From: a virus
Taxonomy: Duplodnaviria; Heunggongvirae; Uroviricota; Caudoviricetes
Strand: one strand, 5' to 3'
IMG/VR virus record: IMGVR_UViG_2537562217_000016
DNA: 13,763 nucleotides
In this document: positions 1 through 13,763 of the stretch, piece by piece
How the letters are laid out: every line of letters begins with the position of its first letter
How positions within the stretch are numbered: position 1 is the stretch's first letter
Program-made: the position numbers and the translations under genes
Notes under the pieces: generated by a model
What the model was told of the DNA's origin: nothing
Seen by the model: the letters and a program-made list of their open reading frames with translations, nothing else
The model's database searches: none

Positions 1-1259
<1,259 letters not shown>

Positions 1260-1284
<25 letters not shown>

Positions 1285-1664
1285 CGCATAATCCGGGATA
1301 CGCATTCAGCGATGACTGCATTTTCACCGGTTTTTACTGCATCCAGAAGTGACTCTTTAAATGGTACGGGCCGGGGCTGCAGAAAGGTCGGCATGGCATT
1401 GAGCAGACAGAGCGTTTTTTCCGTGAGGACGACATCAGCCGCTCCCACAGCCAGCAACTGAGAGTAACGAATATAGCTGTTATCCCGAAGCCATATCAGC
1501 GTATCAATAAAACACCGGCACTTTTTCTGGTCGTGATCAACCTGGTCCGGGATATCGAAAAAACCAGAATAAATCAAAACCTGAGGTGCCGGATGCGTGT
1601 TCAGTAATCGGCAGAATATTTTGCCGGTGAGTACATAAAAATCATCATTTAAGGAGTGCATCAT
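1260..1664 (-). CDS. Hypothetical protein (134 aa), no recognisable family
   Basis: Only long ORF covering 1285..1662; convergent with and overlapping the P-loop ORF by 25 bp. Its start codon overlaps the start of the divergent 71-aa ORF, so strand assignment is uncertain. Confidence 0.35.
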
Positions 1665-1878
1665 GAATCCCCGATTAACGTTAACAGAACATCAGCGCCG
1701 TGCTGAAGCAGTGAACAATGTTCTGGAAGATATTATCCGGTTATACCGCGGAGAACTGAGTGTCTGTCGTGCCGCTTTTCATTTTCAGGGAATACAAAAG
1801 CAGTTTGATACTTCTGTTTTTGCAGAAGGTATTACTTATGCCCTGGACCGGATAAGGTCAGAAAATCGCCCCGGATAA
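1663..1878 (+). CDS. Hypothetical small protein (71 aa)
   Basis: Strong RBS AAGGAG (1651..1656) 6 nt upstream of ATG 1663; followed by a 12-bp-stem hairpin at 1933..1964. Confidence 0.45.
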   Translation: MNPRLTLTEHQRRAEAVNNVLEDIIRLYRGELSVCRAAFHFQGIQKQFDTSVFAEGITYALDRIRSENRPG

Positions 1879-1932
1879 TCCCTAAACCACATTAACAGAA
1901 ATCCCGCCATCCCTGCCGCATCATGAAAGAAC

Positions 1933-1964
1933 GACCAGCCCGGCACCCGAAAGCCGGGCTGGTC
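1933..1964. other. Perfect 12-bp stem / 8-nt loop hairpin (gaccagcccggc acccgaaa gccgggctggtc); possible terminator or REP-like element
   Basis: Read directly. No T-run follows on the plus strand; a weak T-rich tract (GTTCTTTCA) follows on the minus strand. Confidence 0.4.
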
Positions 1965-2068
1965 ATCGCCCCACAGGAATGCGCTGTGAGCCGACCAAGG
2001 TTCAGTCAGTCTCGCGAGACCTGACCAGACTGCCATATTTTTTAATAATTGTAAAAGGCTTACAGATT

Positions 2069-2833
2069 ATGAAAATGCAGACATTACCCATCGTGCCGTG
2101 GATTGGTGGCAAACGCCGCCTTGCAAAACACATTCTGCCGCTGTTTCCGGCGCATGAATGTTATGTGGAGCCGTTTTGTGGGGCAGCAGCGCTCTATTTT
2201 CTTAAGACACCCGGCAAGATCGAAGTCATCAATGATATCAACGGTGAACTGGTGAATCTGTACCGGGTGGTAAAGCATCACCTGGAAGAATTTGTCCGCC
2301 AGTTCAAATGGGCGCTGGTCAGCCGTCAGATCTACAAATGGCTGCAGATCACCCCGGAAGAAACACTGACGGATATCCAGCGTGCGGCACGGTTCTACTA
2401 CCTTCAGAAGCAGGCGTTTGGCGGCAAGGTGGCAGAGCACAGCTTCGGTACCTCCACCACATCCCCGCCACGCTTCAACCTGCTACGTATTGAAGAAGAA
2501 CTGTCAGCGGCACACCTGCGGCTTTCCAGAACAGTCATAGAACACATGGACTGGCAACAGTGCATTGAGCGTTATGATCGTCCGCACACGCTGTTCTACT
2601 GCGACCCACCGTACCTGGGTACGGAAGGCTATGGTGTGGATTTTCCTGAAGGGAACTACTCGCGGCTGGCAGAGCTGGCCCGGTGCATCAGAGGAAAAAT
2701 GATAATTTCGGTGAACGACATCCCGCAGATGCGCGAGGTGTTCACTGGACTGAACATACAGACAGTGAATATCAACTACAGTCTGGCGGGTAAACCCACG
2801 CCGCGCCGTGAACTGCTAATCTGCAACTTCTGA
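2069..2833 (+). CDS. Dam-family (D12 class) N6-adenine DNA methyltransferase, orphan
   Basis: N-terminal AdoMet-binding region PWIGGKRRL...EPFCGAAALYF and catalytic DPPY motif (LFYCDPPYLGTEGY); overall resemblance to Dam. Start chosen at ATG 2069 (RBS AAAAGG 2053..2058) rather than the longer track ORF from 1979. No adjacent restriction endonuclease candidate. Confidence 0.85.
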   Translation: MKMQTLPIVPWIGGKRRLAKHILPLFPAHECYVEPFCGAAALYFLKTPGKIEVINDINGELVNLYRVVKHHLEEFVRQFKWALVSRQIYKWLQITPEETLTDIQRAARFYYLQKQAFGGKVAEHSFGTSTTSPPRFNLLRIEEELSAAHLRLSRTVIEHMDWQQCIERYDRPHTLFYCDPPYLGTEGYGVDFPEGNYSRLAELARCIRGKMIISVNDIPQMREVFTGLNIQTVNINYSLAGKPTPRRELLICNF

Positions 2834-2840
2834 AACAAAA

Positions 2841-2863
2841 CCGGAAAGCACAATGCTTTCCGG
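2841..2863 (-). terminator. Rho-independent terminator for the leftward repressor transcript
   Basis: Perfect 10-bp stem ccggaaagca / tgctttccgg with a 3-nt loop, followed on the minus strand by TTTTGTTTCA (2840..2831). About 85 bp downstream of the repressor stop and abutting the dam stop. Confidence 0.55.
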
Positions 2864-2949
2864 TAAACCAAACAACTTCCACTATGTCACTGGCGATGTT
2901 TTCTGAAAGCATCCAGATCAACCACCTGTCCTTTGTGTCCGGGTCAGTA

Positions 2950-3306
2950 TCAGCCTGCGATTTTTCCTGGTTTTGGCTGAGTATAGAATCGCCCAATCTC
3001 AAGAAATGAGCGTTGTTGGTCTGGTGTCATGTCGTCAAAAGTATCTATTAGTTTTTGTTTTTCTGGGGAAATTTGATTCTGGTTTCTAGTCATACCATCT
3101 GTGCTCATTCCAGTGAGCAACCAATTTACATCAACATTAAACTCTTGATGCATCTTTAACAGAAACTCCCCTCCAGGCATCGCCTTTCCATTTTCAATCT
3201 GACTGATACCACCATTAGAAATACCTAAACGAGCTGCAAATTCTCTCTGGTTCAACCCTGCTTTCTTCCTCACAGAAATAACGCGCTCTCCTATATCTTT
3301 GCTCAT
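2950..3306 (-). CDS. Phage repressor, XRE/Cro-CI family HTH
   Basis: HTH_3 signature LNQREFAARLGISNGGISQIENGKAMP near the N-terminus; divergent from the early operon; operator half-site overlaps its start codon. Confidence 0.8.
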   Translation of the reverse strand: MSKDIGERVISVRKKAGLNQREFAARLGISNGGISQIENGKAMPGGEFLLKMHQEFNVDVNWLLTGMSTDGMTRNQNQISPEKQKLIDTFDDMTPDQQRSFLEIGRFYTQPKPGKIAG

Positions 3307-3329
3307 AAAAGTGAATCTCTATCTTGATA

Positions 3330-3347
3330 TGCTCATAATTATGAGCA
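3330..3347. promoter_or_regulatory. Operator: perfect 18-bp palindrome TGCTCATAATTATGAGCA within a candidate early promoter
   Basis: Read directly. It fills the spacer between candidate -35 TTGATA (3324..3329) and -10 ATAATC (3348..3353); a third copy of the half-site TGCTCATAA sits at 3300..3308 over the repressor start codon. Confidence 0.5.
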
Positions 3348-3399
3348 ATAATCTAACACATATAAGGCAAACATCATTGCATCAACAAAGGAGACAACG

Positions 3400-3588
3400 A
3401 TGACTGCAGAACAAGTCAAAGCTCTCTTCCGCCAGCGCGGGATCACTTTCACCCGCTGGGCAGAAGAAAACGGCTACAACCGCAATGAGGTATACCGCGT
3501 TCTCAACGGGCAGACCAAAGCCCGTTACGGTAAATCCCATGAAATCGCCGTGAAGTTGGGACTGAAATCAACAGCTCAGGCGGCCTAA
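3400..3588 (+). CDS. ner: Ner-like small DNA-binding protein (winged HTH, Ner/Nlp-type), first gene of early operon
   Basis: RBS AGGAG 3389..3393, ATG 3400. 62 aa with HTH and a C-terminal GKSHEIAVKLGL resembling the Ner/Nlp GE.IIAKALG motif; position equivalent to Mu ner. Confidence 0.6.
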   Translation: MTAEQVKALFRQRGITFTRWAEENGYNRNEVYRVLNGQTKARYGKSHEIAVKLGLKSTAQAA

Positions 3589-3640
3589 ATATTTTGAGTC
3601 TTTGTAAAAGGTTATCACATATCGCAAAAGAGGTATGCAG

Positions 3641-3949
3641 ATGAGTAAGACGAATGTTTCAAGCTCCGGCAGTCGCATCCTCCGGGTACTCAAAGCGCTG
3701 CGCGGTCATGCCCTGAACGGTATTTCTAACGGTGAACTGGCGACAGCACTGCACGAGTCACCGGCAAACATCAACCGGGCACTCAACACCCTCATTGAAG
3801 AAGGGCTGGCTCTGAAACTGGAGAACGGACGTTTTGCACCGGGCATCCAGTTACTGCAGATCGCCATGGCCCACAGTAACGAGATGGCACGTGCACAGGA
3901 TCGTATTAACGAAATTAACCAACGTGTCATTTCAGGTAGTCGTTTGTAA
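3641..3949 (+). CDS. Winged-helix DNA-binding protein (MarR/IclR-like HTH), hypothetical regulator
   Basis: RBS AAAAGAGG 3626..3633 favours ATG 3641 over ATG 3635. Motif GISNGELATALHESPANINRALNTLIEEGL is typical of a wHTH recognition helix. Confidence 0.6.
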   Translation: MSKTNVSSSGSRILRVLKALRGHALNGISNGELATALHESPANINRALNTLIEEGLALKLENGRFAPGIQLLQIAMAHSNEMARAQDRINEINQRVISGSRL

Positions 3950-3959
3950 GGAGTAATCA

Positions 3960-4880
3960 ATGGGACGTACCAAATCACCGATTAACACTGAACTGAACGC
4001 CGATGTACCGCTGTCGGATGATCTCAACGTCAGCCTGAATGCCATGACACAGCATCGCATGGAGATCATGCAGCAGTTTGGTGATGGACTGCCTTATGAA
4101 CGTGAACGCATCGTTCACGAAGCACGTTTTTATATGGCGCAGAGTGCTGAATCTATGTTGGAAGCGGGTAAGCGGCTGATCATCTTAAAAGAAAATGAAC
4201 CGCATGGTGATTTCACAAATATTCTGGAAAACGACCTCGGATTAGCACCACAGGTAGCTCGTCGCATGATGCAGGCCAGCGTGAAATTTCTCGGCAATGG
4301 AGATGAACAGCCAAAACGCTCAGCGCTGAGCGTTTTGGGAAAAACCAAGTTATATGAACTGATGGTTCTGGATGACGAAGAACTCGACGCATTAGCTGAT
4401 GGTGGAACCGTCGCCGGTGCAACGCTTGATGATATTGATCGCATGACCAGCCGCGAACTGAAGGCCGCCCTGCGTGAAGCGCGCGAAACCAACGCAGCTC
4501 AGCAACAGGTGCTTGCCGGAAAGGACGAAAAAATCAACGAACTGGCCACAAAACTGGAGAAGAAATCGCGCCTGCAACCTCCGCCGCCAGACGAAGAACT
4601 GAAAAAATTGCGGGCGGAAGTGACGGCATTAGCGGTTGAGGCCGAATCGGCTATCGCCGTCCGGCTGTCCAGTGTTTTTGAGACCCTGTGTGAATACTGC
4701 ACCAAAAACATGATCGATACCCCCAGAGATTTCATGGCCGGTCTGGTCTGCCAGATTGAACGCAGTGTTCATGCATTACGTGAGACGTTTGACCTTGAGG
4801 CCGCTCCATCGGGTAACGATGCCCCCGCCTGGCTGACCGAACCGGAACCTGAAATCAACCGACCGGAGGATATGCAGTAA
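3960..4880 (+). CDS. Hypothetical protein with DUF3102-like N-terminal region and central coiled coil (306 aa)
   Basis: RBS TAAGGAG 3948..3954, ATG 3960. Coiled-coil-like segment ETNAAQQQVLAGKDEKINELATKLEKK...LKKLRAEVTALAVEAE; the DUF3102 resemblance is recalled, not searched. Confidence 0.65.
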   Translation: MGRTKSPINTELNADVPLSDDLNVSLNAMTQHRMEIMQQFGDGLPYERERIVHEARFYMAQSAESMLEAGKRLIILKENEPHGDFTNILENDLGLAPQVARRMMQASVKFLGNGDEQPKRSALSVLGKTKLYELMVLDDEELDALADGGTVAGATLDDIDRMTSRELKAALREARETNAAQQQVLAGKDEKINELATKLEKKSRLQPPPPDEELKKLRAEVTALAVEAESAIAVRLSSVFETLCEYCTKNMIDTPRDFMAGLVCQIERSVHALRETFDLEAAPSGNDAPAWLTEPEPEINRPEDMQ

Positions 4881-5197
4881 TGAATACGAATAACACACAA
4901 AATACCCTGATGGACAGCCCGGAGGCACTGGGGCACGCACTGTGTAATCTGCTGCCGGAGATGGTGCAGGGTTTCCGCGTGGTGACCCCTTCCGGTGAAA
5001 TCTGCGTACCCGCACAGGAGACGCACCCGTTTGTACTGACGATGGAGGTGATGCTGATGCAGCAGATAAGACGTCTGCAGAATCAGTCAGCATTACGCCC
5101 GGTAGTTGCACCGCAACCGGTAAATACCGTGGTGAAAACCTGCGATGGCGAAACACTGTGCGACCTCGCCAGAAAAATTGCCGCCAGAATCGGATAA
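4880..5197 (+). CDS. Hypothetical protein (105 aa)
   Basis: Start ATG overlaps the upstream stop (TAATG at 4878..4882), indicating translational coupling; no recognisable motif. Confidence 0.5.
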   Translation: MNTNNTQNTLMDSPEALGHALCNLLPEMVQGFRVVTPSGEICVPAQETHPFVLTMEVMLMQQIRRLQNQSALRPVVAPQPVNTVVKTCDGETLCDLARKIAARIG

Positions 5198-5212
5198 CAG
5201 GGAAGACAAGCT

Positions 5213-6982
5213 ATGACCCCGGCACTGACTGAAAAACTGGTTGAAACAGCCCGCGCGGCACGTGACGCGGGGCATGGTAAACGCGGTGCAATATACGACG
5301 CTGCCTGTGCTGAACTTGGCATGTCCCGCGCCACTCTGCTGCGCAGGCTGAAGGAGGTATCTGTGACTGATAAACGCAAAAAACGCGCCGATGCCGGGCG
5401 CAGCGCCCTGACCCGCGACGAAGCCGCGCTGATATCTGCCACACTGCGTGAGGCCACCCGCAAGAACGGTAAGCGTCTCTATTCCATCGCAGATGCAGTG
5501 GAAACCCTGCGGGCTAACGGCTTTATCACCGCAGGCAGAACAGATGAAACCACCGGTGAGTTTTTCCCGTTGTCTGAAGATGCCATCAGCCGTGCTCTGC
5601 GTAACTATGGCCTGCACCCGGAACAACTGGATGCCCCTGCACCACATACCGAAGTGGCCAGTCTGCATCCCAATCATGTCTGGCAGATTGACGCCTCACT
5701 CTGCACGCTTTACTACCTGAGCAATGGACATAAAGGGCTGCAGGTGATGGACAGCGCGAAGTTCTACAAGAACAAGCCCGCTAACCTTGCCCGTATCGCC
5801 AGTGACCGCGTGTGGAGTTACGAGATTACCGACCATGCCAGCGGCTGGATTTACGTTGAGTATGTGACGGGCGCGGAATCAGGTGAGAACCTGTGTTCTG
5901 TGCTTATCAACGCCATGCAGGAGCGTGGCGGCGCAGACGTGCTGCACGGCGTGCCGAAAATACTCTATCTCGACCCCGGCTCGGCAAACACCGCGGGTAT
6001 GACGAAAAACATGTGCCGCTCACTGGGCATCGACCTGATAGCGCACAAGCCGCATAACGCCCGCGCCACCGGACAGGTGGAAAAGGCGCGTGACATTATC
6101 GAACGCAAGCTGGAGCCGGGTCTGAAGTTCCGGCCGGTTCACAGTCTGGAAGAACTCAACGCGCTGGCCGCGAAATGGCGCAGCCACTTTAACGCCACGG
6201 CTGTTCACAGCCGCCACGGTAAAACCCGCACGGATATCTGGCTGAAGATTACTGCTGAGCAGCTGAAAAAAGCGCCTTCCGTTGAGGTATGTCGTGAACT
6301 GGCTGTGGCGGCACCAGAACTCCGCAAAGTCACGCCAAAACTTCGTGTCTCGTTCCGGGGCACTGAATTTGACGTATCAACGGTACCGGGCGTACTGGTT
6401 GGTGAAAAACTGATGATTACCCGTAACCCATGGCGCAGCGATGTGGCACAGGTGGTTCTGACCGGTGAGGACGGCCACGAGACGTTCTTCCTGGTCGAAG
6501 AGGTCAGAAAGAACAAGTTTGGCTTTGCTGAAGGCGCGGCGGTATTTGGCGAAAGTTACAAAGCCCTGCCGGAAACCCCGGCACAGATGGCGGCAAAAGA
6601 AACCGAAGCGCTGGTTACCGGTACAGACAACGCCGCAGATGCAGCCGCCGCACGCAAGGCGAAGGCGCTGCCGTTCGGCGGGCGGCTTGACCCGTATAAA
6701 CATATCGACGACACCACACTTCCGGCCTATATGCCGAAGCGTGGTCAGGCCTCTGACGTACGCGGGCCGCGCACTGAACAACGTCCCATGACTCATGTGG
6801 AGGCCGCGAAAGCCCTGCGCGATAAGTTCAGCGCCGACGGCCTTACCTGGACGCCGGAACATTACCGCCAGTTAACGGCACAGTACCCGGACGGCGTACC
6901 GGAAGCCGCACTGGATGAAGTCATGGCCACGCTGACCACACCGGCCCGCAGCAGTGTTATCAGCATTGTTAACGGCAACTGA
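5213..6982 (+). CDS. DDE transposase of transposable phage (TnsB/Tn552/TniA-type DD(35)E core; MuA analogue)
   Basis: Catalytic triad read from the translation: D160 (HVWQIDAS, codon 5690..5692), D254 (ILYLDPGS, 5972..5974), E290 (ATGQVEKAR, 6080..6082), i.e. D-93-D-35-E. Basic N-terminal DNA-binding region. Position between ner and the ATPase. Confidence 0.85.
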   Translation: MTPALTEKLVETARAARDAGHGKRGAIYDAACAELGMSRATLLRRLKEVSVTDKRKKRADAGRSALTRDEAALISATLREATRKNGKRLYSIADAVETLRANGFITAGRTDETTGEFFPLSEDAISRALRNYGLHPEQLDAPAPHTEVASLHPNHVWQIDASLCTLYYLSNGHKGLQVMDSAKFYKNKPANLARIASDRVWSYEITDHASGWIYVEYVTGAESGENLCSVLINAMQERGGADVLHGVPKILYLDPGSANTAGMTKNMCRSLGIDLIAHKPHNARATGQVEKARDIIERKLEPGLKFRPVHSLEELNALAAKWRSHFNATAVHSRHGKTRTDIWLKITAEQLKKAPSVEVCRELAVAAPELRKVTPKLRVSFRGTEFDVSTVPGVLVGEKLMITRNPWRSDVAQVVLTGEDGHETFFLVEEVRKNKFGFAEGAAVFGESYKALPETPAQMAAKETEALVTGTDNAADAAAARKAKALPFGGRLDPYKHIDDTTLPAYMPKRGQASDVRGPRTEQRPMTHVEAAKALRDKFSADGLTWTPEHYRQLTAQYPDGVPEAALDEVMATLTTPARSSVISIVNGN

Positions 6983-6992
6983 GGAGGGAAAC

Positions 6993-8159
6993 ATGCTGGT
7001 ACTGAAGCAGCAACTGAAAGAGGCCCGTATTCCACAGGCGGTGGTGGCGAGAGCTGTCGATGTTTCTGAGGCCACGCTGGCCCAGATTGTGAATCATAAC
7101 GCGTGGCCCCGCACCAGCCCCGGAGAAGTGCGCCGGCGTCTTGCGTCCTGGCTGGAAAGTCAGGGGATTGATACAACGAAGAGTTTTGATGCTGTACAGG
7201 GCGCGGCCACGCCCCGTACAGCGGGTACCACAGATAAAACGAGCCTCAGTGAGGAAGAGAATATGTTACTCAAAAAACAGGTGTTATTTCCAGCAACCAA
7301 AAAAGCGTTTGGTCTTTTCCGTGACCCGTTCGCCGACGAAGCCATGCAGGGTTCTGATGATGTGTTCACCACCCCGGATATTCGCTACGTGCGTGAGGCG
7401 TTGTACCAGACAGCCCGTCATGGTGGGTTTATGGCCGTCATCGGTGAGTCCGGTGCGGGTAAATCCACGCTGCGCCGCGACCTGACTGAACGTATCAACC
7501 GCGAGAATGCGCCGGTAATTGTTATCGAGCCATACATCATCGCTATGGAAGACAACGATGTGAAAGGGAAAACCCTGAAGGCAGCAGCGATTGCCGAAGC
7601 CATTATCAGTACCATCGCACCACTGGAAAGCATCAGACGCAGTCAGGACGCCCGCTTTCGCCAGTTGCATCGCGTCCTGAAAGACAGCAGCCAGGCGGGG
7701 TTCAGCCACGTTCTGGTGATTGAGGAGGCCCACAGTCTGCCCATTCCGACACTGAAACACCTCAAACGCTTTTTTGAGCTGGAGTCCGGTTTCAAAAAAC
7801 TGCTGTCCATCGTGCTGATTGGCCAGCCGGAACTGGCGACAAAACTGTCTGAACGCAATATGGAAGTCCGTGAAGTCGTTCAGCGCTGTGAGGTGGTCGA
7901 ACTTCTGCCTCTGGACAATAACCTTGAAGAGTTTCTGACGTTCAAACTGCAACGGGCCGGTAAACAACTGACGGACATTATGGACGCCAGCGCAGTGGAT
8001 GCCATACGTGCCCGCCTGAGCAATCCGGGAAGTCATCGTAAAAATATGGTCAGCCTGCTGTATCCGCTGGCCGTCAGTAACCTGGTAATAGCCGCCATGA
8101 ATCTGGCCGCTGAAATCGGGGTTCCACAGGTCAACGCTGACGTTGTCAAAGGGGTTTAA
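6993..8159 (+). CDS. Transposition-associated AAA+ ATPase (MuB/TniB/TnsC analogue) with N-terminal HTH extension
   Basis: RBS GAGGAGGG 6981..6988, ATG 6993, 10 nt after the transposase stop. Walker A GESGAGKST (~7441..7470), Walker B HVLVIEEAH; N-terminal HTH-like ARAVDVSEATLAQIVNHN. Confidence 0.8.
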   Translation: MLVLKQQLKEARIPQAVVARAVDVSEATLAQIVNHNAWPRTSPGEVRRRLASWLESQGIDTTKSFDAVQGAATPRTAGTTDKTSLSEEENMLLKKQVLFPATKKAFGLFRDPFADEAMQGSDDVFTTPDIRYVREALYQTARHGGFMAVIGESGAGKSTLRRDLTERINRENAPVIVIEPYIIAMEDNDVKGKTLKAAAIAEAIISTIAPLESIRRSQDARFRQLHRVLKDSSQAGFSHVLVIEEAHSLPIPTLKHLKRFFELESGFKKLLSIVLIGQPELATKLSERNMEVREVVQRCEVVELLPLDNNLEEFLTFKLQRAGKQLTDIMDASAVDAIRARLSNPGSHRKNMVSLLYPLAVSNLVIAAMNLAAEIGVPQVNADVVKGV

Positions 8160-8161
8160 TA

Positions 8162-8431
8162 ATGAAATCCACCACAGGTATCAACCAGCAAATCAGCAAA
8201 GTGCAGTCAGCCATTATGGCGCTTAAGGCGACGAACACGGATGTACAAAGCATCACCATCAGGGGTAACAAACCTGTCATCCGCGTTTCCCGGAGTGCGC
8301 ATTGCATGCGCATGCTTGAGCAGGGAAAGGCCTGTTATCTGTATACCGGTCATGACCACAGGGGACATTTCCGTCAGGGCGTTTTCGAACTGCACGGCTG
8401 TCGCGTCGTGTGGCCGGAATCTTTGTGGTAA
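8162..8431 (+). CDS. Hypothetical protein (89 aa) in the position of Mu kil
   Basis: ATG 2 nt after the ATPase stop; Cys/His-rich C-terminal half (HCMRM...CYLYTGHDHRGH...HGC). Function unknown. Confidence 0.5.
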   Translation: MKSTTGINQQISKVQSAIMALKATNTDVQSITIRGNKPVIRVSRSAHCMRMLEQGKACYLYTGHDHRGHFRQGVFELHGCRVVWPESLW

Positions 8432-8458
8432 TCAGCACAACAGGAGGAGTCATAAAAT

Positions 8459-8989
8459 ATGGCAAAAAGTACAAAAGGGGCAAAACGTATCAAAGCCGCA
8501 GCAGCACTCTGGGTGCCGGGGACACGCGAAGAGGTCATTGAGGGAATCAGACTGCTTGGTGACGCGCAACGTGAACTGGTCAGGGCTGAAACAGAAATGA
8601 ATGACACCATTGGCGACATCACTGCACGTTATGCCCCGCTCACCGAGAGCCTGAAAAAACGCATGGCCGAACTGCAGTCCGGTATCCAGACATGGTGTGA
8701 GGCGCACCGTGATGAACTGACCGGCAACGGGAAGGTGAAGTTCGCTAACCTCACCACCGGCGAGGTGCAGTGGCGAAACCGTCCGCCGTCAGTCAGCATT
8801 CGCGGGGCGGATAATGTCATTGAACTGCTGAGACGTCTGGGGCTTGAGCGCTTTATTCGTGTAAAGGAGGAAATAAATAAAGATGCCATTCTGAATGAAA
8901 AAGAGGCTGTGAAAAATATTCCCGGTATTACCATAAAAAGTGATATTGAGGATTTTTCAATAATTCCTTTTGAGCAGGATGTGCAGTAA
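8459..8989 (+). CDS. gam: Host-nuclease inhibitor protein Gam (Mu Gam family)
   Basis: RBS AGGAGG 8442..8447. Extended colinear similarity to phage Mu Gam as recalled: RIKAAAA, ETEMND, WCEAHRDELTGNGKVKFANLTTGEVQWRNRPPSVSIRG, LGLERFIRVKEEINKDAIL, GITIKSDIEDFSIIPFEQ. Confidence 0.9.
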   Translation: MAKSTKGAKRIKAAAALWVPGTREEVIEGIRLLGDAQRELVRAETEMNDTIGDITARYAPLTESLKKRMAELQSGIQTWCEAHRDELTGNGKVKFANLTTGEVQWRNRPPSVSIRGADNVIELLRRLGLERFIRVKEEINKDAILNEKEAVKNIPGITIKSDIEDFSIIPFEQDVQ

Positions 8990-9086
8990 ACACACCACGT
9001 TAATTATTTAATAAAAACATTTTCTTTTTTATTCCGGCGTCAGCGCCGCGGGCTTCTGCACGCCGGAAACAGAGGAGAATTAAATT

Positions 9087-9281
9087 ATGATATTTAAATG
9101 TATTCAGTGCGAGAGGGATATAACAGCCCTGCGTTTTCACAGCGCCATCGCCGTGATGTCCGGTAAGTATCACATACCTGCAGTACGTGTCACCCTGGTC
9201 TGCCCGTACTGCAGCCAGCATTTTTCGGCGGACGTGCCCGTCATGGAATTCTCCCGCCCTGACAGGGAGGACGCGCAATGA
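9087..9281 (+). CDS. Small zinc-ribbon protein (64 aa; CxxC ... CxxC)
   Basis: RBS GAGGAG 9073..9078, ATG 9087. Cys pairs KCIQCE and VCPYCS. Confidence 0.5.
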   Translation: MIFKCIQCERDITALRFHSAIAVMSGKYHIPAVRVTLVCPYCSQHFSADVPVMEFSRPDREDAQ

Positions 9282-9550
9282 TTACCCCACAGGAAGCACG
9301 ACAGCGCACCCGAACTCTTGTTGAACACTATGTCAACGAGTGTGAATGCCGCGACCTCACCGATGTGAAGCACGTCCTGACGGCGCTAATCAGCATGGCC
9401 ACACAGGCCATTGTGGCGACCAACGGAAAGGAGGCTGCCCTGCAGGTACTGATGAACACACTCACCCACACGGCAGAGCATGAGGTGCCGTACCGGATGG
9501 AAACCACTGCAGAAGGCGGCCTGCACATCACCGTCAGCCGGAAGCACTGA
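9278..9550 (+). CDS. Hypothetical protein (90 aa)
   Basis: ATGA start/stop overlap with the upstream ORF (translational coupling); no recognisable motif. Confidence 0.45.
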   Translation: MITPQEARQRTRTLVEHYVNECECRDLTDVKHVLTALISMATQAIVATNGKEAALQVLMNTLTHTAEHEVPYRMETTAEGGLHITVSRKH

Positions 9551-9559
9551 GGGCGCGGC

Positions 9560-9856
9560 ATGACACGAAACACCGAACTCACCCGCACCGCCCTCTACCG
9601 TCTGGCCCTGCAGCGTTTCGGGCCGGACGCACAGGCCCTGAAACTGGCAGAAGAGGCCGCTGAACTGGCGGCCAGTGCCGCCCGCAACCTGAACGGACAG
9701 GGCAGCGAAAGTGACCTCGCGGCAGAGCTGGCAGACGTGGAAATCATGACAGAGCAACTGCGCCTTCAGGGGATGGACCGGCTGATTGACTTCCACAAAC
9801 AGAAAAAACTGGAACGTCTGGCTGCACGACTGGGCGTGATTTACACGAACGAGTAA
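9560..9856 (+). CDS. Putative MazG-like all-alpha NTP pyrophosphohydrolase-domain protein (98 aa)
   Basis: Acidic helix motifs LAEEAAELAASAA and AAELADVEIMTEQL plus C-terminal KQKKLERL resemble the EExxE/ExxD metal-binding helices of small phage MazG-like proteins. Assignment is from motifs only. Confidence 0.45.
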   Translation: MTRNTELTRTALYRLALQRFGPDAQALKLAEEAAELAASAARNLNGQGSESDLAAELADVEIMTEQLRLQGMDRLIDFHKQKKLERLAARLGVIYTNE

Positions 9857-9870
9857 CCGGGAGGCATTCA

Positions 9871-10086
9871 ATGGCTGACATACTCAGGGAAATCACCGCA
9901 TGGACACTGATTCTTACTGGCCTGGCGACATGCCTCAGTGCGGGGGCAGCCCTGGCTGCCCTGCTGATGCACATAACAACACAGTGGTTATGGGAAAAGC
10001 TTAAAGCAGCATACAGCCTGAAAGAGCTGTCCGACGCTGTCCGGGCATGGAAACGGCAGAAAAATACCGGAGATACAGAACAATGA
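9871..10086 (+). CDS. Small membrane protein (71 aa; one predicted TM helix)
   Basis: RBS GGGAGG 9857..9862, ATG 9871. Hydrophobic stretch WTLILTGLATCLSAGAALAALLM. Confidence 0.45.
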   Translation: MADILREITAWTLILTGLATCLSAGAALAALLMHITTQWLWEKLKAAYSLKELSDAVRAWKRQKNTGDTEQ

Positions 10087-10766
10087 CAGACCAGAATAAA
10101 CACATTGAGAAACTGAAAAAGTTGCTGGCGCTGGCCGCATCCGGCAACCCGCACGAGGCCGCTCTGGCACTGCGCCGAGCCCGTAAACTGATGGATGTTC
10201 ACGGCATCACACATTCCGACATTGCTATGAGTGATATTGATGAAACCATCAGTCACTACTGGCCGACAGGCAGTCTCCGTCCACCGCGCTACATGCTGGG
10301 CCTGATGAACATCATCCGCGAGGTATTTGGTGTTAACTCCATCATTCACCCCGGCACGCATCCGTCTGTGGGGTTCTACGGCAACCGGGAACGTGCGGCA
10401 CTGGCTGCATACACCTGGGAAGTGCTGGCCCGTCAGCTGAAAAAGGCGCGTCAGCAGTATATCAGTGCACAGAACAAAAGAATAAAAACCGCCACCCGCA
10501 CCAGCCGTGGAGACCAGTTTGCCGAAGGCTGGGTGCTGGCCGTTATCAGTGAAATACAGTCCTTTGCCCTGACCGATGATGAGCGTGAATTGATGCAGCA
10601 GTGGCTGGAACATAAATACCCGCAGACGCAAACCACCAGGGCGCGTAAACCGGGAAGAAGCCGCAATGGCGACGCCTCGCGCTATGCGGGGTTTCGTGAA
10701 GGGCAGAACGTCAGACTGCACCGCCCGGTCAGTGGGCAGGAACAACAGAAACTGGAGGCCAGATGA
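10083..10766 (+). CDS. DUF2786-like protein (227 aa)
   Basis: ATG 10083 overlaps the upstream stop (ATGA) and is preferred over the track start at 10047. N-terminal motif IEKLKKLLALAASGNPHEAALALRRARKLM resembles the DUF2786 signature as I recall it. Confidence 0.6.
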   Translation: MTDQNKHIEKLKKLLALAASGNPHEAALALRRARKLMDVHGITHSDIAMSDIDETISHYWPTGSLRPPRYMLGLMNIIREVFGVNSIIHPGTHPSVGFYGNRERAALAAYTWEVLARQLKKARQQYISAQNKRIKTATRTSRGDQFAEGWVLAVISEIQSFALTDDERELMQQWLEHKYPQTQTTRARKPGRSRNGDASRYAGFREGQNVRLHRPVSGQEQQKLEAR

Positions 10767-10993
10767 TTACGCTATCAGGTAAAAGCCGGAAATTAAAAGC
10801 CTGCCGAATATCTGCCAGATACCTTTTTGCCCGCGCCTTTTTTAAGAACGTCAGGCCGGGGATCACAATTGGTGTTATTGCCGGACGCGAACAGGTTGAA
10901 AAATACATGTCAGGTGCATGGTGGAATAACGACCCTGTCATTGCTGCCCGTAATATTCATATCGAATGGGGAGGTATTCAGAATGACTACTGA
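10763..10993 (+). CDS. Hypothetical protein (76 aa)
   Basis: ATGA overlap with the upstream ORF stop; no motif recognised. Confidence 0.4.
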   Translation: MITLSGKSRKLKACRISARYLFARAFFKNVRPGITIGVIAGREQVEKYMSGAWWNNDPVIAARNIHIEWGGIQNDY

Positions 10994-11189
10994 AACCATT
11001 GTCTGTTTTCTTTTCTGGTATATGTACGCAGGATCATGCAGCGCAAGACTTCATCGTTCCCTGGGCTATGGCAGGCACTACGACACCGCGCATTACATCC
11101 TGTACATGACCGCCGTCATGTTGTTCTGGCCAGTCACCCTGCCAGCTGCAACCGACATTGTTGCCGACAGACTGAAAAAAAGGAGATGA
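10983..11189 (+). CDS. Small membrane protein (68 aa; two hydrophobic segments)
   Basis: ATG 10983 overlaps the upstream ORF end. Hydrophobic segments IVCFLFWYMYAG and ILYMTAVMLFWPV. The track's longer ORF from 10827 is rejected as an upstream extension. Confidence 0.4.
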   Translation: MTTETIVCFLFWYMYAGSCSARLHRSLGYGRHYDTAHYILYMTAVMLFWPVTLPAATDIVADRLKKRR

Positions 11190-11190
11190 T

Positions 11191-11388
11191 ATGCAGAAAA
11201 AACGCCTGATACAGCTTATCCATATTGCCCGTAATGAACTGGGTATGGATGAAGACACCTACCGCCAGATGTTACAGGGGCTGACCGGTAAAGCCTCAAC
11301 CAAAGGAATGGATACCACACAACTAAACTGCGTGCGTAAGCGTCGTCTCAGCACCGTCTGGCAGATCCTGAAATTCCTGAGAGAATAG
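11191..11388 (+). pseudogene. GemA/gp16-like (DUF1018) gene truncated by IS66-family insertion; only ~48 native codons (11191..~11335) remain
   Basis: RBS AGGAG 11181..11185, ATG 11191. N-terminal LIQLIHIARNELGMDEDTYRQMLQGLTGKASTKGM matches the conserved start of Mu gp16/GemA-like proteins as I recall it. The reading frame runs into the IS end at ~11336 and stops at 11386..11388. Confidence 0.55.
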
Positions 11389-11416
11389 TGGACACCAAAT
11401 ATGGTGGACGCTATTC

Positions 11417-11821
11417 ATGAAATCATTAACCGCAGTGCGTAAAAAAAGCCCTAATTATCCCGTTGAGTTCAAAATCAAAATGGTGGAACTCTCGCATCGA
11501 CCAGAGATCTCCGTAGCGCAACTCGCTCGTGAGCATGGGATCAACGATAATTTGCTGTTCAAGTGGCGCCAGTACTGGCGCGAAGGAAAACTACGTCCTC
11601 CTTCAACAACAGAAAACAACGTGCCTGAGCTGCTCCCGATAACACTTGATGCCGAAGATGTTGTCCCTACAACCTCCCCCCGGTCACAACCTGTAGCTGC
11701 TGCGACACCTGAATCACTCAATATCAGCTGTGAAGTGACGTTCCGGCACGGATCACTCCGTCTGAATGGTGCCATCAGCGAAAATATCCTGAACCTGCTG
11801 ATACGGGAGCTCAAACGTTGA
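11417..11821 (+). CDS. tnpA: IS66-family accessory protein TnpA (orfA)
   Basis: 134 aa with HTH region ISVAQLAREHGINDNLLFKWRQYW; first ORF of the IS66 module. Confidence 0.85.
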   Translation: MKSLTAVRKKSPNYPVEFKIKMVELSHRPEISVAQLAREHGINDNLLFKWRQYWREGKLRPPSTTENNVPELLPITLDAEDVVPTTSPRSQPVAAATPESLNISCEVTFRHGSLRLNGAISENILNLLIRELKR

Positions 11822-12165
11822 TCCCATTACCATCAGGGACAAAGATCTGGCTGGTCGCTGGCATCACCGATATGAGAAACGGCTTCAACGGCCTGGCGGC
11901 AAAGGTGCAGACGACGCTGAAAGACGATCCGATGTCAGGTCACGTTTTTATCTTCCGTGGGCGTAATGGCAGTCAGGTAAAGCTCCTCTGGTCTACCGGC
12001 GATGGACTGTGTCTGCTGACCAAACGGCTGGAGCGCGGCCGCTTCGCCTGGCCGTCAGCCCGGGATGGCAAAGTGTTCCTCACACCGGCACAGCTGGCGA
12101 TGCTGCTGGAAGGTATCGACTGGCGGCAGCCTAAAAGACTACTTACGTCCCTGACTATGTTGTAA
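11818..12165 (+). CDS. tnpB: IS66-family TnpB (orfB)
   Basis: Highly characteristic IPLPSGTKIWLVAGITDMRNGFNGLAAKVQ... N-terminus; TTG start at 11818 overlaps the tnpA stop (11819..11821). Confidence 0.9.
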   Translation: MIPLPSGTKIWLVAGITDMRNGFNGLAAKVQTTLKDDPMSGHVFIFRGRNGSQVKLLWSTGDGLCLLTKRLERGRFAWPSARDGKVFLTPAQLAMLLEGIDWRQPKRLLTSLTML

Positions 12166-12213
12166 GCCTCTTTATCCTGGTCGACGCTGAATGAGCCTGG
12201 TAATATACCCGGT

Positions 12214-13751
12214 ATGAGCAGCTCACTTCCTGACGATATCAATGCACTGAAACGTCTCCTTGCCGAACAGGAGGCGCTGAACCGTGCCCTGCTGGAAAAG
12301 CTGAACGAGCGTGAACGCGAAATAGACCATCTGCAGGCACAGCTGGATAAGCTGCGCCGGATGAACTTCGGCAGCCGCTCGGAAAAAGTCTCCCGTCGTA
12401 TCGCACAGATGGAAGCTGACCTGAAGGCACTTCAGAAAGAAAGTGATACCCTTACCGGTCGGGTTGACGACCCGGCCGTGCAGCGCCCGCTGCGTCAAAC
12501 CCGCACCCGCAAACCGTTCCCCGAATCACTCCCCCGCGATGAAAAACGGCTGCTGCCGGCAGCGTCATGCTGCCCGGAATGTGGAGGCTCGCTGAGCTAT
12601 CTGGGTGAGGATGCCGCCGAACAGCTGGAGTTGATGCGCAGCGCCTTCCGGGTTATCCGGACTGTACGTGAAAAGCATGCCTGTACTCAGTGCGATGCCA
12701 TCGTGCAGGCCCCCGCGCCTTCACGGCCCATCGAGCGGGGTATCGCAGGACCGGGGCTGCTGGCCCGCGTGCTGATCTCAAAGTATGCAGAGCACACCCC
12801 GCTGTACCGCCAGTCTGAAATGTACGGCCGCCAGGGCGTGGAGCTGAGTCGTTCACTGCTGTCGGGCTGGGTGGATGCATGCTGCCGGCTACTGTCACCG
12901 CTGGAAGAAGCGCTTCAGGACTATGTGCTGACTGACGGTAAGCTCCATGCTGATGACACGCCTGTCCCGGTGCTGTTGCCAGGCAATAAGAAAACGAAGA
13001 CCGGGCGGTTATGGACCTACGTTCGTGACGACCGTAACGCCGGGTCAACGCTGGCGCCGGCGGTGTGGTTCGCTTACAGCCCGGACAGAAAAGGCATCCA
13101 TCCGCAGACCCATCTTGCGGGGTTCAGTGGTGTACTGCAGGCGGATGCATACGCCGGGTTCAACGAGCTGTACCGGGATGGCCGGATAACGGAAGCCGCC
13201 TGTTGGGCTCACGCCCGCCGTAAAATCCACGATGTGCACGTTCGCACCCCGTCAGCCCTGACGGAGGAAGCGCTGAACGGATCGGCGAACTGTACGCCAT
13301 CGAGGCAGAGATAAGGGGAATGACGGCGGAGCAGCGCCTTGCCGAACGTCAGTTGAAAACGAAACCGCTGCTGAAATCCCTGGAAAGCTGGCTGCGTGAA
13401 AAGATGAAAACCCTGTCGCGACACTCAGAACTGGCGAAAGCGTTCGCATACGCCCTGAACCAGTGGCTGGCGCTGACGTACTATGCAGATGATGGCTGGG
13501 CTGAGGCGGACAATAACATCGCTGAAAATGCGTTGCGGATGGTCAGTCTGGGCCGCAAAAACTACCTGTTCTTCGGTTCGGATCATGGAGGAGAGCGGGG
13601 AGCGCTGCTGTACAGCCTGATCGGGACGTGCAAACTGAACGGAGTGGAGCCAGAAAGCTACCTCCGCTATGTCCTTGACGTCATAGCCGACTGGCCGATA
13701 AACCGGGTCGGCGAACTGCTCCCCTGGCGCGTAGCACTGCCGACTGAATAA
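12214..13751 (+). pseudogene. tnpC: IS66-family transposase TnpC (orfC), interrupted by an apparent 1-nt frameshift near 13276..13278
   Basis: ORF 12214..13314 (366 aa; leucine-zipper-like N-terminus, CPECGG zinc-finger-like motif, DDE region) and ORF 13320..13751 (143 aa) are colinear in different frames. The downstream frame is already open from ~13260 (…[20 protein letters not shown]…), and the combined ~510 aa matches full-length TnpC. Confidence 0.8.
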
Positions 13752-13763
13752 CACATCCCCGTC

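What the first reader, a model, noticed from the sequence alone, without database searches (positions are those of the whole stretch)
2069..2833. Orphan Dam-family adenine methyltransferase abutting the prophage repressor
The DPPY catalytic motif and N-terminal AdoMet-binding region identify a Dam-like methyltransferase, yet no restriction endonuclease gene is nearby. Its stop codon sits 8 bp from the terminator of the convergent repressor transcript. Orphan Dam-like enzymes in phages and plasmids are used for anti-restriction self-modification or epigenetic regulation; in Mu, the mom modification operon is known to depend on Dam methylation, so a phage-linked dam copy could make the element host-independent.
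Basis: partly seen in the sequence, partly recalled or inferred. Interest (0 to 1): 0.45.

Follow-up and report, generated by a model that had tools for sequence, protein, structure and literature searches.

The report
Known prophage methylase with unannotated partner RNA
The gene is a real but already catalogued orphan DNA adenine methylase (M.EcoMIV) inside a Mu-like prophage of E. coli ST131; the new point is that it travels with a conserved, apparently undescribed small structured RNA gene that probably controls it.

Summary
Bases 2069-2833 (+) encode a 254-aa D12-class N6-adenine methyltransferase with intact AdoMet and DPPY motifs and no endonuclease partner. It converges on the repressor gene, and a minus-strand terminator overlaps its stop codon.

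The gene is not new. It is nucleotide-identical to M.EcoMIV (EC958_1101) of prophage Phi2 of E. coli ST131, described in 2015 as a silent orphan of unknown specificity. The prophage is BcepMu-like, about 37 kb, and inserted in ycaL. The methylase lies 27 kb and 9 kb from its ends, so it is inside the element.

It is not a Dam orthologue. It belongs to the phage B3 ORF48 / phiE125 gp27 family and lacks the Dam residues that read GATC (R124, K9).

The unexpected result is the 130 bp upstream (1910-2039). On the opposite strand it shows a promoter-like extended -10, three covarying helices and a U-rich tail. It accompanies this methylase family across beta- and gammaproteobacterial phages, sometimes with com, and occasionally with mom instead of the methylase. 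It matches no Rfam family.

I infer a modification enzyme expressed in lytic growth and held off in the lysogen by this RNA.

The parts
2069..2833 (+). Orphan D12-class N6-adenine DNA methyltransferase, identical to M.EcoMIV / WP_000783854.1. Motif I is at 2168-2191 and DPPY at 2603-2614.
   Evidence: Pfam PF02086 at E 6e-29. PADLOC MTase_II at 371 bits and TIGR00571 at 116.6 bits. Nucleotide-identical to the EC958 gene. dN/dS 0.05-0.09.
1923..2035 (-). Candidate small structured RNA gene, transcribed away from the methylase. Parts: extended -10 (TG 2035-2034, hexamer CAGTCT 2032-2027); inferred start near 2020; hairpin P3' 2030-2002; closing helix P0 2003-2000 with 1932-1929; unpaired CUUGG 1999-1995; hairpin P2' 1994-1984 with 1976-1966; GC-rich hairpin P1' 1965-1953 with 1944-1932; U-rich tail 1931-1923.
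   Evidence: Conserved although the flanks differ. Covariation is strong. G.U wobble asymmetry favours the minus strand, 298 against 68, and 160 against 3 in P2'. The minus strand folds 10-17 kcal/mol better in most lineages. Covariance model R1 scores 117.7 bits here and finds the element beside the methylase family widely. Coordinates. No Rfam match.
2830..2864 (-). Intrinsic-terminator-like hairpin with a U-tract, placed to end the leftward repressor transcript. The U-tract overlaps the methylase stop codon.
   Evidence: Terminator scan: stem of 11 pairs, tail TTTGTTTCAG. There is no T-run on the plus strand. This sequence is specific to the ST131/PhiKM lineage.
2950..3306 (-). Prophage repressor candidate (HTH_3 / cI-like), convergent with the methylase.
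   Evidence: PF01381 at E 4.6e-15 and PF07022 at E 1.8e-5. PHROG transcriptional repressor families. Same position as BcepMu gp17.
3400..3588 (+). Ner/Cro-like small DNA-binding protein, first gene of the rightward early operon.
   Evidence: phrog_925 at E 3.8e-33. Annotated as DNA-binding protein in RefSeq.
5213..8159 (+). Transposition genes: DDE transposase (5213-6982) and MuB-like AAA+ ATPase (RefSeq start 6993, end 8159). They mark the element as a transposable phage.
   Evidence: PF00665 rve and PF13401 AAA_22. RefSeq annotation. BcepMu gp09/gp08 occupy the same order.
544..1878 (.). Variable accessory slot between the lysis genes and the methylase. It holds three ORFs of unknown function: 556-1284 (+), a P-loop protein in phrog_3787 whose 5' end is cut by the IS; 1260-1664 (-), phrog_2266; and 1663-1878 (+), phrog_4490.
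   Evidence: No nuclease or defence match. Other lineages carry a DUF2441 gene here instead.
1..573 (-). End of an IS21/IS100-family insertion sequence (istA runs off the window). It replaces the prophage sequence to the left of base 574.
   Evidence: Homology to 390 E. coli chromosomes begins exactly at 574. Matching plasmid hits are annotated as IS100-family istA.
11336..13763 (+). IS66-family element (ISEc22/23-like; tnpA, tnpB, tnpC) inserted in the gemA/gp16 gene.
   Evidence: Prophage homology ends at 11335. IS66 annotations. The truncated GemA ORF at 11191-11388 matches PF06252.

Best explanation
SHOWN. Bases 2069-2833 encode M.EcoMIV, an orphan D12-class N6-adenine DNA methyltransferase of the phage B3 ORF48 / phiE125 gp27 family. 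It sits in the central accessory slot, between the leftward lysis/structural operon and the repressor/early region, of a ~37-kb BcepMu-like transposable prophage (ST131 Phi2 / phage PhiKM) inserted in ycaL. It is conserved under purifying selection and has no endonuclease partner.

SHOWN. Its upstream 130 bp is a conserved structured element read on the opposite strand. The element has a promoter-like extended -10, three covarying helices and a U-rich tail. It accompanies this methylase family across many unrelated phages, either directly upstream of the methylase or upstream of a com gene that precedes it.

INFERRED.
- The enzyme is the phage's own DNA-modification (anti-restriction) function, an analogue of Mu Mom. 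It methylates replicating or packaged phage DNA during lytic growth and is off in the lysogen.
- The partner element is a ~100-nt small RNA gene. Its promoter lies back-to-back with the methylase start region, and it holds methylase expression down in the lysogen. The mechanism would be promoter competition or transcriptional interference, or antisense pairing with any methylase transcript that starts upstream of it.
- The recognition sequence is unknown and probably not read the way Dam reads GATC.
For: Identity and fold: Pfam, TIGRFAM and PADLOC matches. The nearest solved structures are DpnM and EcoDam at E 1e-17 to 1e-14.

Already described: the gene is nucleotide-identical to the EC958 gene for WP_000783854.1. 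The paper describes M.EcoMIV on Phi2 as carrying PF02086, with low transcript, no motif assigned, and no homologue above 65% identity of known specificity.

Prophage: PhiKM, classed as Bcepmuvirus, carries a 100% identical methylase. The gene order matches BcepMu. The prophage ends are TG...CA with a 5-7 bp duplication in ycaL, and its length is 37,054 bp.

Orphan and conserved slot: Klebsiella, Salmonella and other prophages keep the methylase while its neighbours change.

Selection: dN/dS is 0.05-0.09.

The RNA:
- 85.6% identity against 79.2% for the CDS and 38.7% for the flank.
- 92.9% of cells paired, with 51 double changes against 19 in shuffles.
- On 56 sequences, 36 of 37 pairs show double changes and the covariation score is 0.600 against 0.236, reached by 0 of 500 shuffles.
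- Wobble asymmetry is 298 against 68, 160 against 3 in P2', and 57 against 0 in a model-free extension test.
- The hexamer is TAGGCT, TAGAAT or CAGGCT in 39 of 55; A2 plus T6 are present in 46 of 55; an upstream TG is present in 28 of 55.

Linkage: R1 hits lie upstream of the methylase, on the opposite strand, in about 50 of 60 genome loci. An RNA-only pattern scan of IMG/VR returned 12 contigs. Eleven have the methylase adjacent and divergent, and one has com plus mom.

com architecture: found in B3 and five other loci.
Against: No activity or target sequence has been shown for this enzyme or, in the papers I could read, for any close relative. The anti-restriction role rests on analogy.

There are no expression data for the RNA. 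The E. coli copy has a weak -10 hexamer (CAGTCT). Photorhabdus copies fold no better on the minus strand.

I could not locate the methylase's own promoter. The one consensus hit, at 2021-2049, is not conserved and would leave too short a leader.

A test for trans pairing of the RNA with the methylase ribosome-binding region was negative, with mean z of -0.27.

Alignment A6 was fitted to the model, which inflates the pair counts. Absence from Rfam and from the searchable papers does not prove the RNA is undescribed.
Confidence: 0.6

Rival explanations
1. It is a true iso-specific Dam (GATC) enzyme. It tops up host Dam on rapidly replicating phage DNA, as T4, T2 and P1 Dam do, protecting against MboI/DpnII-type restriction or MutH nicking.
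For: It belongs to the Dam superfamily. It passes the TIGR00571 subfamily cut-off and its best solved relatives are all GATC enzymes. A GATC enzyme would be invisible in the Dam+ EC958 methylome. The aromatic residue at the Y119 intercalation position is kept as F117, and R137 is kept.
Against: The Dam equivalog score is 67 against a cut-off of 441. R124, whose loss removes discrimination at the fourth base pair of GATC, has no counterpart, and K9 is a proline. The recognition hairpin has a different, family-specific sequence (AFGGKV..FGT[AS]TT). GATC is mildly depleted in the prophage, 95 observed against 142 expected, which a self-methylating GATC phage would not need. REBASE, as quoted in the paper, lists it as putatively asymmetric type IIA.
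Confidence: 0.25
2. The conserved upstream block is not a minus-strand RNA. It would be either a DNA-level control region (binding sites for a late activator, repressor or transposase, plus the methylase promoter) or a plus-strand 5' leader that masks the ribosome-binding site.
For: The core of P2' (CACAG-N7-CTGTG) varies little over much of the set while its loop varies freely, as a dimer-binding site would. P3' is a dyad. The plus-strand fold can pair CUGUGAGYC with GGCUUACRG over the Shine-Dalgarno region in many sequences. Watson-Crick covariation says nothing about strand.
Against: The wobble asymmetry strongly favours the minus strand, and transitions almost never create plus-strand G.U pairs. 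In the wider set 36 of 37 pairs covary, which is unusual for protein sites. The proposed plus-strand anti-SD pairs never covary and break in Xenorhabdus. The AGCCUA anti-SD idea fails where the box is TAGAAT. The element keeps the same orientation and spacing whether the next gene is the methylase, com or com-mom.
Confidence: 0.2
3. It is a lysogenic-conversion gene (moron) that methylates the host chromosome to reprogramme gene expression, or to 'vaccinate' the host against incoming restriction systems.
For: It lies in a variable accessory slot next to the immunity region, where morons are common. In Burkholderia phage phi1026b the homologous gene had sizeable RNA-seq signal in a lysogen.
Against: In the EC958 lysogen the transcript was significantly lower than dam, and every detected m6A motif was assigned to another enzyme. 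The tight link to com and to mom-type modules points to phage DNA modification.
Confidence: 0.1
4. It is an inactive relic, or the methylase half of a restriction-modification system whose endonuclease lies nearby.
For: No methylation has ever been attributed to it. In this window the prophage is hit by two insertion sequences.
Against: All catalytic motifs are intact and dN/dS is 0.05-0.09. Thousands of full-length homologues exist. No neighbour matches a nuclease, and the neighbours differ between lineages. The complete prophage in other genomes holds only phage genes.
Confidence: 0.04

Closest known systems
M.EcoMIV (EC958_1101), prophage Phi2 of E. coli ST131 EC958 (Forde et al. 2015, PMC4659465)
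   Same: It is the same gene, nucleotide-identical, with the same protein accession WP_000783854.1. The paper already calls it a prophage-borne type II orphan with PF02086, a predicted Dam homologue, poorly transcribed and with no motif assigned.
   Different: The paper does not place it in a BcepMu-like phage. It does not compare the recognition residues with Dam, and it does not mention the upstream RNA element or the link to com and mom.
Pseudomonas phage B3 ORF48 'Dam' with ORF47 Com; Burkholderia phiE125 gp27, phi1026b, KS9 gp25; Vibrio VP882 methylase
   Same: They share 62-66% identity over the full length. B3 carries the same upstream RNA element (45.6 bits).
   Different: In B3 a Com zinc-ribbon gene sits between the RNA and the methylase, and the module lies among tail genes. 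The E. coli prophage has no com. B3 ORF48 activity was still undemonstrated in 2011.
E. coli Dam, T4 Dam, DpnM (GATC methyltransferases; PDB 2G1P, 1YFL, 2DPM)
   Same: Same D12/alpha-class fold family and motif order (FxGxG then DPPY). An aromatic residue is kept at the intercalating Y119 position.
   Different: Identity is only 26-32%. The Dam equivalog threshold is not met. The GATC-reading residues K9, N120, L122, R124 and P134 are replaced.
Mu com-mom operon
   Same: Both are late, potentially harmful phage DNA-modification functions under dedicated control. The same RNA element precedes com-mom in 3 of 80 mom loci, and precedes com-methylase in B3-like loci.
   Different: Mom (PF25680) is not a methyltransferase. 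Mu itself has no match to the RNA model. Mu relies on host Dam/OxyR, C and Com (textbook knowledge). This prophage has neither com nor mom.
Hia5 / Hin1523 / Nma1821 non-specific adenine methyltransferases of Mu-like prophages (Drozdz et al. 2012, PMC3299994)
   Same: They are Dam-related orphan methylases that stand in for Mom in Mu-like prophages, which is the same biological logic (my recollection of the abstract).
   Different: They form a different family. B3 ORF48 was not among the 1000 closest sequences to Hia5. I did not test whether M.EcoMIV has relaxed specificity.
Phage cis-encoded regulatory RNAs (P22 sar, lambda OOP, P1/P7 c4) and the 'D12-methyl' RNA motif upstream of D12 methylase genes (named from memory)
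   Same: All are short structured RNAs encoded next to, and opposite or upstream of, the phage gene they are linked to. The D12-methyl motif is a precedent for an RNA tied to D12 methylases.
   Different: There is no match to any of the 4227 Rfam 15 families on either strand. As mapped, the predicted transcript does not overlap the methylase ribosome-binding site.

Membership tests
D12-class (alpha-group) N6-adenine DNA methyltransferase, PF02086 | Pfam score above the gathering cut-off over the whole domain | tested here: met
   102 bits against a cut-off of 22, profile positions 1-248 of 253.
D12-class (alpha-group) N6-adenine DNA methyltransferase, PF02086 | AdoMet motif FxGxG lies N-terminal to the catalytic DPPY motif | tested here: met
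   EPFCGAAA at residues 34-41 and DPPY at 179-182. These columns are invariant across the family, EcoDam and DpnM.
Dam (GATC-specific) orthologues | NCBIfam equivalog NF008152 cut-off | tested here: not met
   67 bits against a cut-off of 441. Only the broad subfamily model TIGR00571 is passed, at 116.6 against 114.85.
Dam (GATC-specific) orthologues | Residues that read GATC in EcoDam: K9, Y119, N120, L122, R124, P134, Y138 | tested here: not met
   The aligned residues are P10, F117, G118, K120, A122 (D/E/S in relatives), S, and F or L. Only the aromatic position and R137 are kept. Residue roles are taken from PMC4417163. Identity is about 26%, so the hairpin alignment is approximate.
Dam (GATC-specific) orthologues | Methylation of GATC | not testable with these tools
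   This needs a DpnI/MboI assay or methylome sequencing in a dam- host. It is masked by host Dam in EC958.
Type II restriction-modification system | Cognate endonuclease gene adjacent and co-conserved | tested here: not met
   The neighbours have no nuclease or defence match. They differ between lineages, and the whole prophage holds only phage genes.
B3 ORF48 / phiE125 gp27 phage methylase family | Full-length similarity of at least 60% with a shared recognition-hairpin sequence | tested here: met
   62-66% identity over residues 3-254. The hairpin AFGG[KR]V..[FY]GT[AS]TT is shared.
B3 ORF48 / phiE125 gp27 phage methylase family | Upstream divergent structured element (a feature defined here) | tested here: met
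   R1 scores 117.7 bits at 1910-2039 (-). It hits about 50 of 60 family loci and 11 of 12 pattern-selected viral contigs.
Mu-type com-mom modification module | Mom (PF25680) and Com (PF10122) genes present | tested here: not met
   tblastn of Mu Mom and Com and of B3 Com against the whole prophage found nothing. The zinc-ribbon ORF at 9087-9281 does not match PF10122.
Hia5 / M.EcoGII-type non-specific adenine methylases | Sequence membership in the Hia5 family and near-indiscriminate adenine methylation | not tested
   No Hia5 sequence was available here. The literature reports that B3 ORF48 is not retrieved by Hia5 searches.
Bcepmuvirus-like transposable phage | Divergent early (repressor, transposase, MuB-like, Gam, GemA, Mor) and late (lysis, Mu-like head, P2-like tail) arms; TG...CA ends with a short target duplication | tested here: met
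   The gene order matches BcepMu. PhiKM is classified as Bcepmuvirus. The ends and the GAAGAA(T) duplication are in ycaL.
Any described RNA family (Rfam 15) | Covariance-model match at E of 1 or below | tested here: not met
   No relevant hit in the window at 1800-3450 or in seven diverse loci, on either strand.
Independent small RNA gene | Promoter, conserved structure and intrinsic terminator on one strand | tested here: inconclusive
   The structure and strand bias are strong. The -10 box is conserved, with A2 plus T6 in 46 of 55 and TG in 28 of 55. The tail is U/C-rich rather than a clean U-run. No transcript data exist.

The most novel reading that the evidence does not exclude
The 130 bp upstream of the methylase encodes a previously unannotated family of ~100-nt phage small RNAs. 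The RNA forms a portable control cassette, with or without the Com translational activator, for harmful DNA-modification enzymes: usually this D12 methylase, occasionally Mom. It keeps them silent in lysogens of many beta- and gammaproteobacterial temperate phages. If so, the cassette stands where Mu uses its Dam/OxyR-C-Com circuit, as a different, RNA-based control of phage DNA modification.
Probability: 0.4. Interest if true: 0.7.

Novelty: new variant of a known kind. Interest (0 to 1): 0.5.

Why it matters
The methylase alone adds little. It is a catalogued ST131 prophage gene whose target is still unknown.

Three things could matter.

1. Experimenters should not assume GATC specificity. 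A cloned-gene methylome would settle a gap that has been open in the ST131 methylome since 2015.
2. The enzyme appears to fill the Mom niche in BcepMu-like, B3-like and phiE125-like phages. That bears on how temperate phages cross restriction barriers in clinically important clones.
3. A widespread, strongly covarying RNA is tied to phage DNA-modification genes. It gives a concrete, testable handle on how such enzymes are kept off in lysogens, and it is a candidate new RNA family for the databases.

Tried and rejected
- **N-terminal extension.** The 284-aa ORF from 1979, used in the PhiKM record, is rejected: the frame is not conserved.
- **Methylase promoter.** The sigma-70 hit at 2021-2049 is not conserved and leaves about a 13-nt leader.
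- **Com homologue in the prophage.** None was found by tblastn. The two-CxxC ORF at 9087-9281 does not match PF10122.
- **Plus-strand leader that masks the ribosome-binding site.** Two versions were tried: CUGUGAGYC with GGCUUACRG, and AGCCU with AGGCU. Neither shows covariation, both break in some lineages, and the wobble bias points to the other strand.
- **Trans pairing of the RNA's unpaired GCCUUGG with the methylase Shine-Dalgarno region.** Duplex energies were no better than shuffles, mean z -0.27.
- **Rfam.** No match.
- **The RNA as a general mom regulator.** Only 3 of 80 mom loci carry it, and Mu does not.
- **Specificity from the literature.** The phiE125 and VP882 papers are not held. 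The ST131, ST101 and O111 methylome papers give no motif. No paper mentioning such an RNA was found.
- **Source replicon of the window.** No complete E. coli genome or plasmid in the collections holds the window with both insertion sequences.
- **Structure prediction.** Not run. It could not decide specificity, and only shallow alignments (85% identity or above) were admissible.
Full report
**1. The observation**

The ORF at 2069-2833 (+) encodes 254 residues. It matches Pfam PF02086 (D12-class N6-adenine methyltransferase) over the whole profile at E 6e-29, 102 bits against a cut-off of 22. The AdoMet motif EPFCGAAA is at 2168-2191 and the catalytic DPPY at 2603-2614.

RefSeq uses the same start codon. 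The longer ORF from 1979, used in one phage record, is not conserved, because relatives carry a 1-nt indel and a stop there.

A terminator-like hairpin lies on the minus strand at 2864-2840 and is followed by TTTGTTTCAG. It begins 6 nt after the methylase stop codon, and its U-tract overlaps that stop. The convergent gene 2950-3306 (-) is an HTH_3/cI-like repressor. The description is therefore correct, apart from '8 bp'.

**2. Where the gene sits**

Window bases 574-5200 are 99.9-100% identical to 390 of 5,426 complete E. coli genomes, typically ST131 strains.

In strain 4/1-1 the gene lies in the middle of a prophage. To its left are holin, transglycosylase, terminase, Mu-type portal and head genes and P2-type tail genes, all on the minus strand, ending in a Gin-like invertase. 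To its right are the repressor, a Ner-like gene, DDE transposase, a MuB-like ATPase, Gam, GemA and Mor.

This divergent layout is that of Burkholderia phage BcepMu. An isolated coliphage, PhiKM, classed as Bcepmuvirus, carries a 100% identical methylase.

Comparison with the empty K-12 site shows insertion into the first codons of ycaL. The ends are TG...CA with a 5-7 bp duplication, GAAGAA(T), and the length is 37,054 bp. The methylase is about 27 kb from one end and 9 kb from the other, so it is inside the element.

In this window the prophage segment runs only from 574 to 11335. An IS100-family element lies to the left and an IS66-family element to the right, inside gemA.

**3. It is already known**

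The coding sequence is nucleotide-identical to the EC958 gene for WP_000783854.1. There is one upstream SNP, at 2062.

Forde et al. 2015 (PMC4659465) name this gene M.EcoMIV (EC958_1101), on prophage Phi2. They describe it as a type II orphan with PF02086 and a 'predicted Dam homolog', transcribed significantly less than dam in mid-log culture. No methylation motif was assigned to it. No homologue above 65% identity has a known specificity, and REBASE only putatively lists it as asymmetric type IIA.

**4. What kind of methylase it is**

The nearest solved structures are DpnM and EcoDam, at E 1e-17 to 1e-14 and 26-32% identity. It barely passes the broad Dam subfamily model (116.6 against 114.85 bits) and fails the Dam equivalog (67 against 441).

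Its real family is that of phage B3 ORF48, phiE125 gp27, phi1026b, KS9 gp25 and the VP882 methylase, at 62-66% identity over the full length. There are also thousands of enterobacterial prophage copies at 85-88% identity.

In EcoDam, R124 makes the key contact to the fourth base pair of GATC, and its loss removes that discrimination. K9 and Y138 read the first pair, L122 and P134 the third, and Y119 intercalates (PMC4417163). In the alignment this family keeps an aromatic residue at the Y119 position, but has P for K9, G for N120, K for L122 and A/D/E/S for R124. Its hairpin sequence is its own, AFGG[KR]V..[FY]GT[AS]TT.

GATC specificity should therefore not be assumed. At this identity the hairpin alignment is approximate, so GATC is not excluded either.

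dN/dS of 0.05-0.09 shows that the protein is under purifying selection.

**5. It is an orphan**

The three ORFs to the left (phrog_3787, phrog_2266, phrog_4490) match no nuclease or defence family.

In Klebsiella, Salmonella, Citrobacter and other prophages the methylase keeps the same slot, which reads: holin | variable genes | methylase | variable genes | repressor. The neighbours change; one example is a DUF2441 gene. BcepMu itself has other genes there and no methylase.

**6. The unexpected part: a conserved structured element upstream**

The ~130 bp upstream of the start codon stays conserved where the flanks are unalignable. Window against Klebsiella gives 85.6% identity for this block, 79.2% for the coding sequence (where dS is at least 1) and 38.7% for the next 200 nt.

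*Structure.* Read on the strand opposite to the methylase, it folds into hairpin P3', then a short helix P0 that encloses a 12-bp hairpin P2' and a GC-rich 12-14-bp hairpin P1', then a U/C-rich tail.
- On 18 enterobacterial sequences, 92.9% of cells pair, against 33-51% when partners are slid. There are 51 double-sided changes against 19 in shuffles, reached by 0 of 500.
- A covariance model built from them (R1) finds the element upstream of the methylase homologue, always on the opposite strand. It hits about 50 of 60 loci from Burkholderia, Paraburkholderia, Chromobacterium, Nitrosomonas, Methylophaga, Pseudomonas phage B3 and others, at E 1e-16 to 1e-4.
- On 56 sequences, 36 of 37 pairs show double-sided changes and the covariation score is 0.600 against 0.236, reached by 0 of 500 shuffles. 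The caveat is that this alignment was fitted to the model.

*Strand.* G.U pairs possible only in the minus-strand RNA outnumber those possible only in the plus strand by 298 to 68, and by 160 to 3 in P2'. A model-free outward extension of P2' gives 57 to 0. The minus strand folds 10-17 kcal/mol better in most lineages, though not in Photorhabdus.

*Promoter-like box.* At the 5' side of the structure there is a conserved box that fits an extended -10. The hexamer is TAGGCT (22), TAGAAT (10) or CAGGCT (7) of 55. A2 plus T6 are present in 46 of 55, and a TG lies one base upstream in 28 of 55. The E. coli copy reads TGGCAGTCT (2035-2027), which is weaker.

No Rfam 15 family matches on either strand. 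Two literature searches found nothing on it.

**7. An independent test of the linkage**

I scanned IMG/VR with a pattern taken only from the RNA core. It returned 12 contigs, and R1 scores all 12 at 55-65 bits.
- Eleven carry a methylase homologue (60-67% identity) directly adjacent and divergent.
- The twelfth carries a Com zinc-ribbon gene (PF10122) followed by Mom (PF25680, E 3.6e-73) in the same place.

Among genome loci there are two architectures:
- the element, then 15-40 nt, then the methylase start;
- the element, then about 15-20 nt, then com, then the methylase. This second form is seen in B3 and five other loci.

Conversely, only 3 of 80 mom loci carry the element, and Mu itself does not.

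The element is thus chiefly the partner of this methylase family. Com is an optional extra layer, and Mom is an occasional replacement cargo.

**8. Interpretation**

Sharing com and the RNA with mom marks this methylase as a phage DNA-modification function of the Mom type. It is not a device that supplies Dam to a mom operon, and the E. coli prophage has neither mom nor com.

I infer that the enzyme methylates phage DNA during lytic growth to escape restriction and is kept off in the lysogen. That fits the low transcript and the absence of an extra motif in EC958.

I infer that the partner element is a small RNA gene of about 100 nt, running from roughly 2020 to 1924. Its promoter lies about 37 bp from the methylase start codon. 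It would lower methylase expression either by competing with or interfering with a back-to-back or convergent methylase promoter, or by pairing with transcripts that start upstream of it. Such transcripts must occur in B3, where the module lies inside the late operon.

These last steps are inference. I could not find the methylase promoter, and a test for trans pairing with the ribosome-binding region was negative.

**9. Rivals**

- A genuine GATC Dam remains possible, at about 0.25.
- The upstream block could be a DNA-level control region or a plus-strand leader, at about 0.2. The wobble bias and the near-universal covariation argue against this.
- A host-reprogramming moron is disfavoured by the EC958 data.
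- A dead gene or a hidden restriction partner is very unlikely.

**10. Verdict**

The gene itself is already described, and the Mu-based rationale does not hold.

The value of the locus lies in two points: the specificity has still not been determined and is probably not Dam-like, and the gene is coupled to a widespread structured RNA that is, as far as I could check, unannotated.

Noticed in passing
window 1910-2039 (-); also L092 2196-2326, L107 1154-1285, and about 60 other loci: A conserved, strongly covarying structured element lies opposite to and just upstream of the methylase. It is a candidate ~100-nt small RNA with an extended -10 box and a terminator-like end, and it matches nothing in Rfam 15. 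It is linked to the B3-type methylase family, sometimes through com, and rarely to mom.
   Followed up: yes
window 1-573 and 11336-13763: The prophage segment is bounded by an IS100/IS21-family element on the left, which removes the first six codons of the phrog_3787 gene. On the right an IS66-family element sits inside gemA/gp16, and its tnpC reads as two ORFs in different frames (12214-13314 and 13320-13751). No complete E. coli genome or plasmid in the collections has this exact arrangement.
   Followed up: partly
L093 about 2302 and L001 about 20600 (NZ_CP023844): The intact prophage is inserted in the first codons of ycaL. Its ends are TG...CA with a GAAGAA(T) target duplication, and GATAAATG motifs repeat near both ends; these are likely transposase-binding sites. 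A Gin-like invertase and alternative tail-fibre segments lie at the far end.
   Followed up: partly
window 9087-9281 (+): A 64-aa ORF with two CxxC pairs (phrog_3401, function unknown) lies in the early region after gam. It is zinc-ribbon-like but does not match Com (PF10122) or B3 Com.
   Followed up: partly
window 1260-1664 (-) and 1663-1878 (+): Two annotated ORFs of unknown function diverge from overlapping start codons (CAT/ATG sharing bases 1663-1664). The minus-strand ORF also overlaps the 3' end of the P-loop ORF 544-1284 by 25 nt. There is no room for conventional promoters, so one call may be spurious or the arrangement may be regulatory.
   Followed up: no
L014 (Pantoea stewartii) 3846-4000: In this relative the methylase and the last ~70 nt before its start are kept, but the RNA element is replaced by unrelated sequence. 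This is a natural variant in which the methylase is uncoupled from the RNA.
   Followed up: no
whole prophage (L093 2302-19501 plus L001 747-20600): GATC occurs 95 times against about 142 expected from base composition, a ratio of 0.67. This agrees with the published remark that GATC is under-represented in the EC958 prophages.
   Followed up: no
window 2062: The only difference from EC958 across 1910-2949 is A (window) for G at 2062. It lies 7 nt upstream of the methylase start codon, at a position that also varies between lineages (A, G or T).
   Followed up: no
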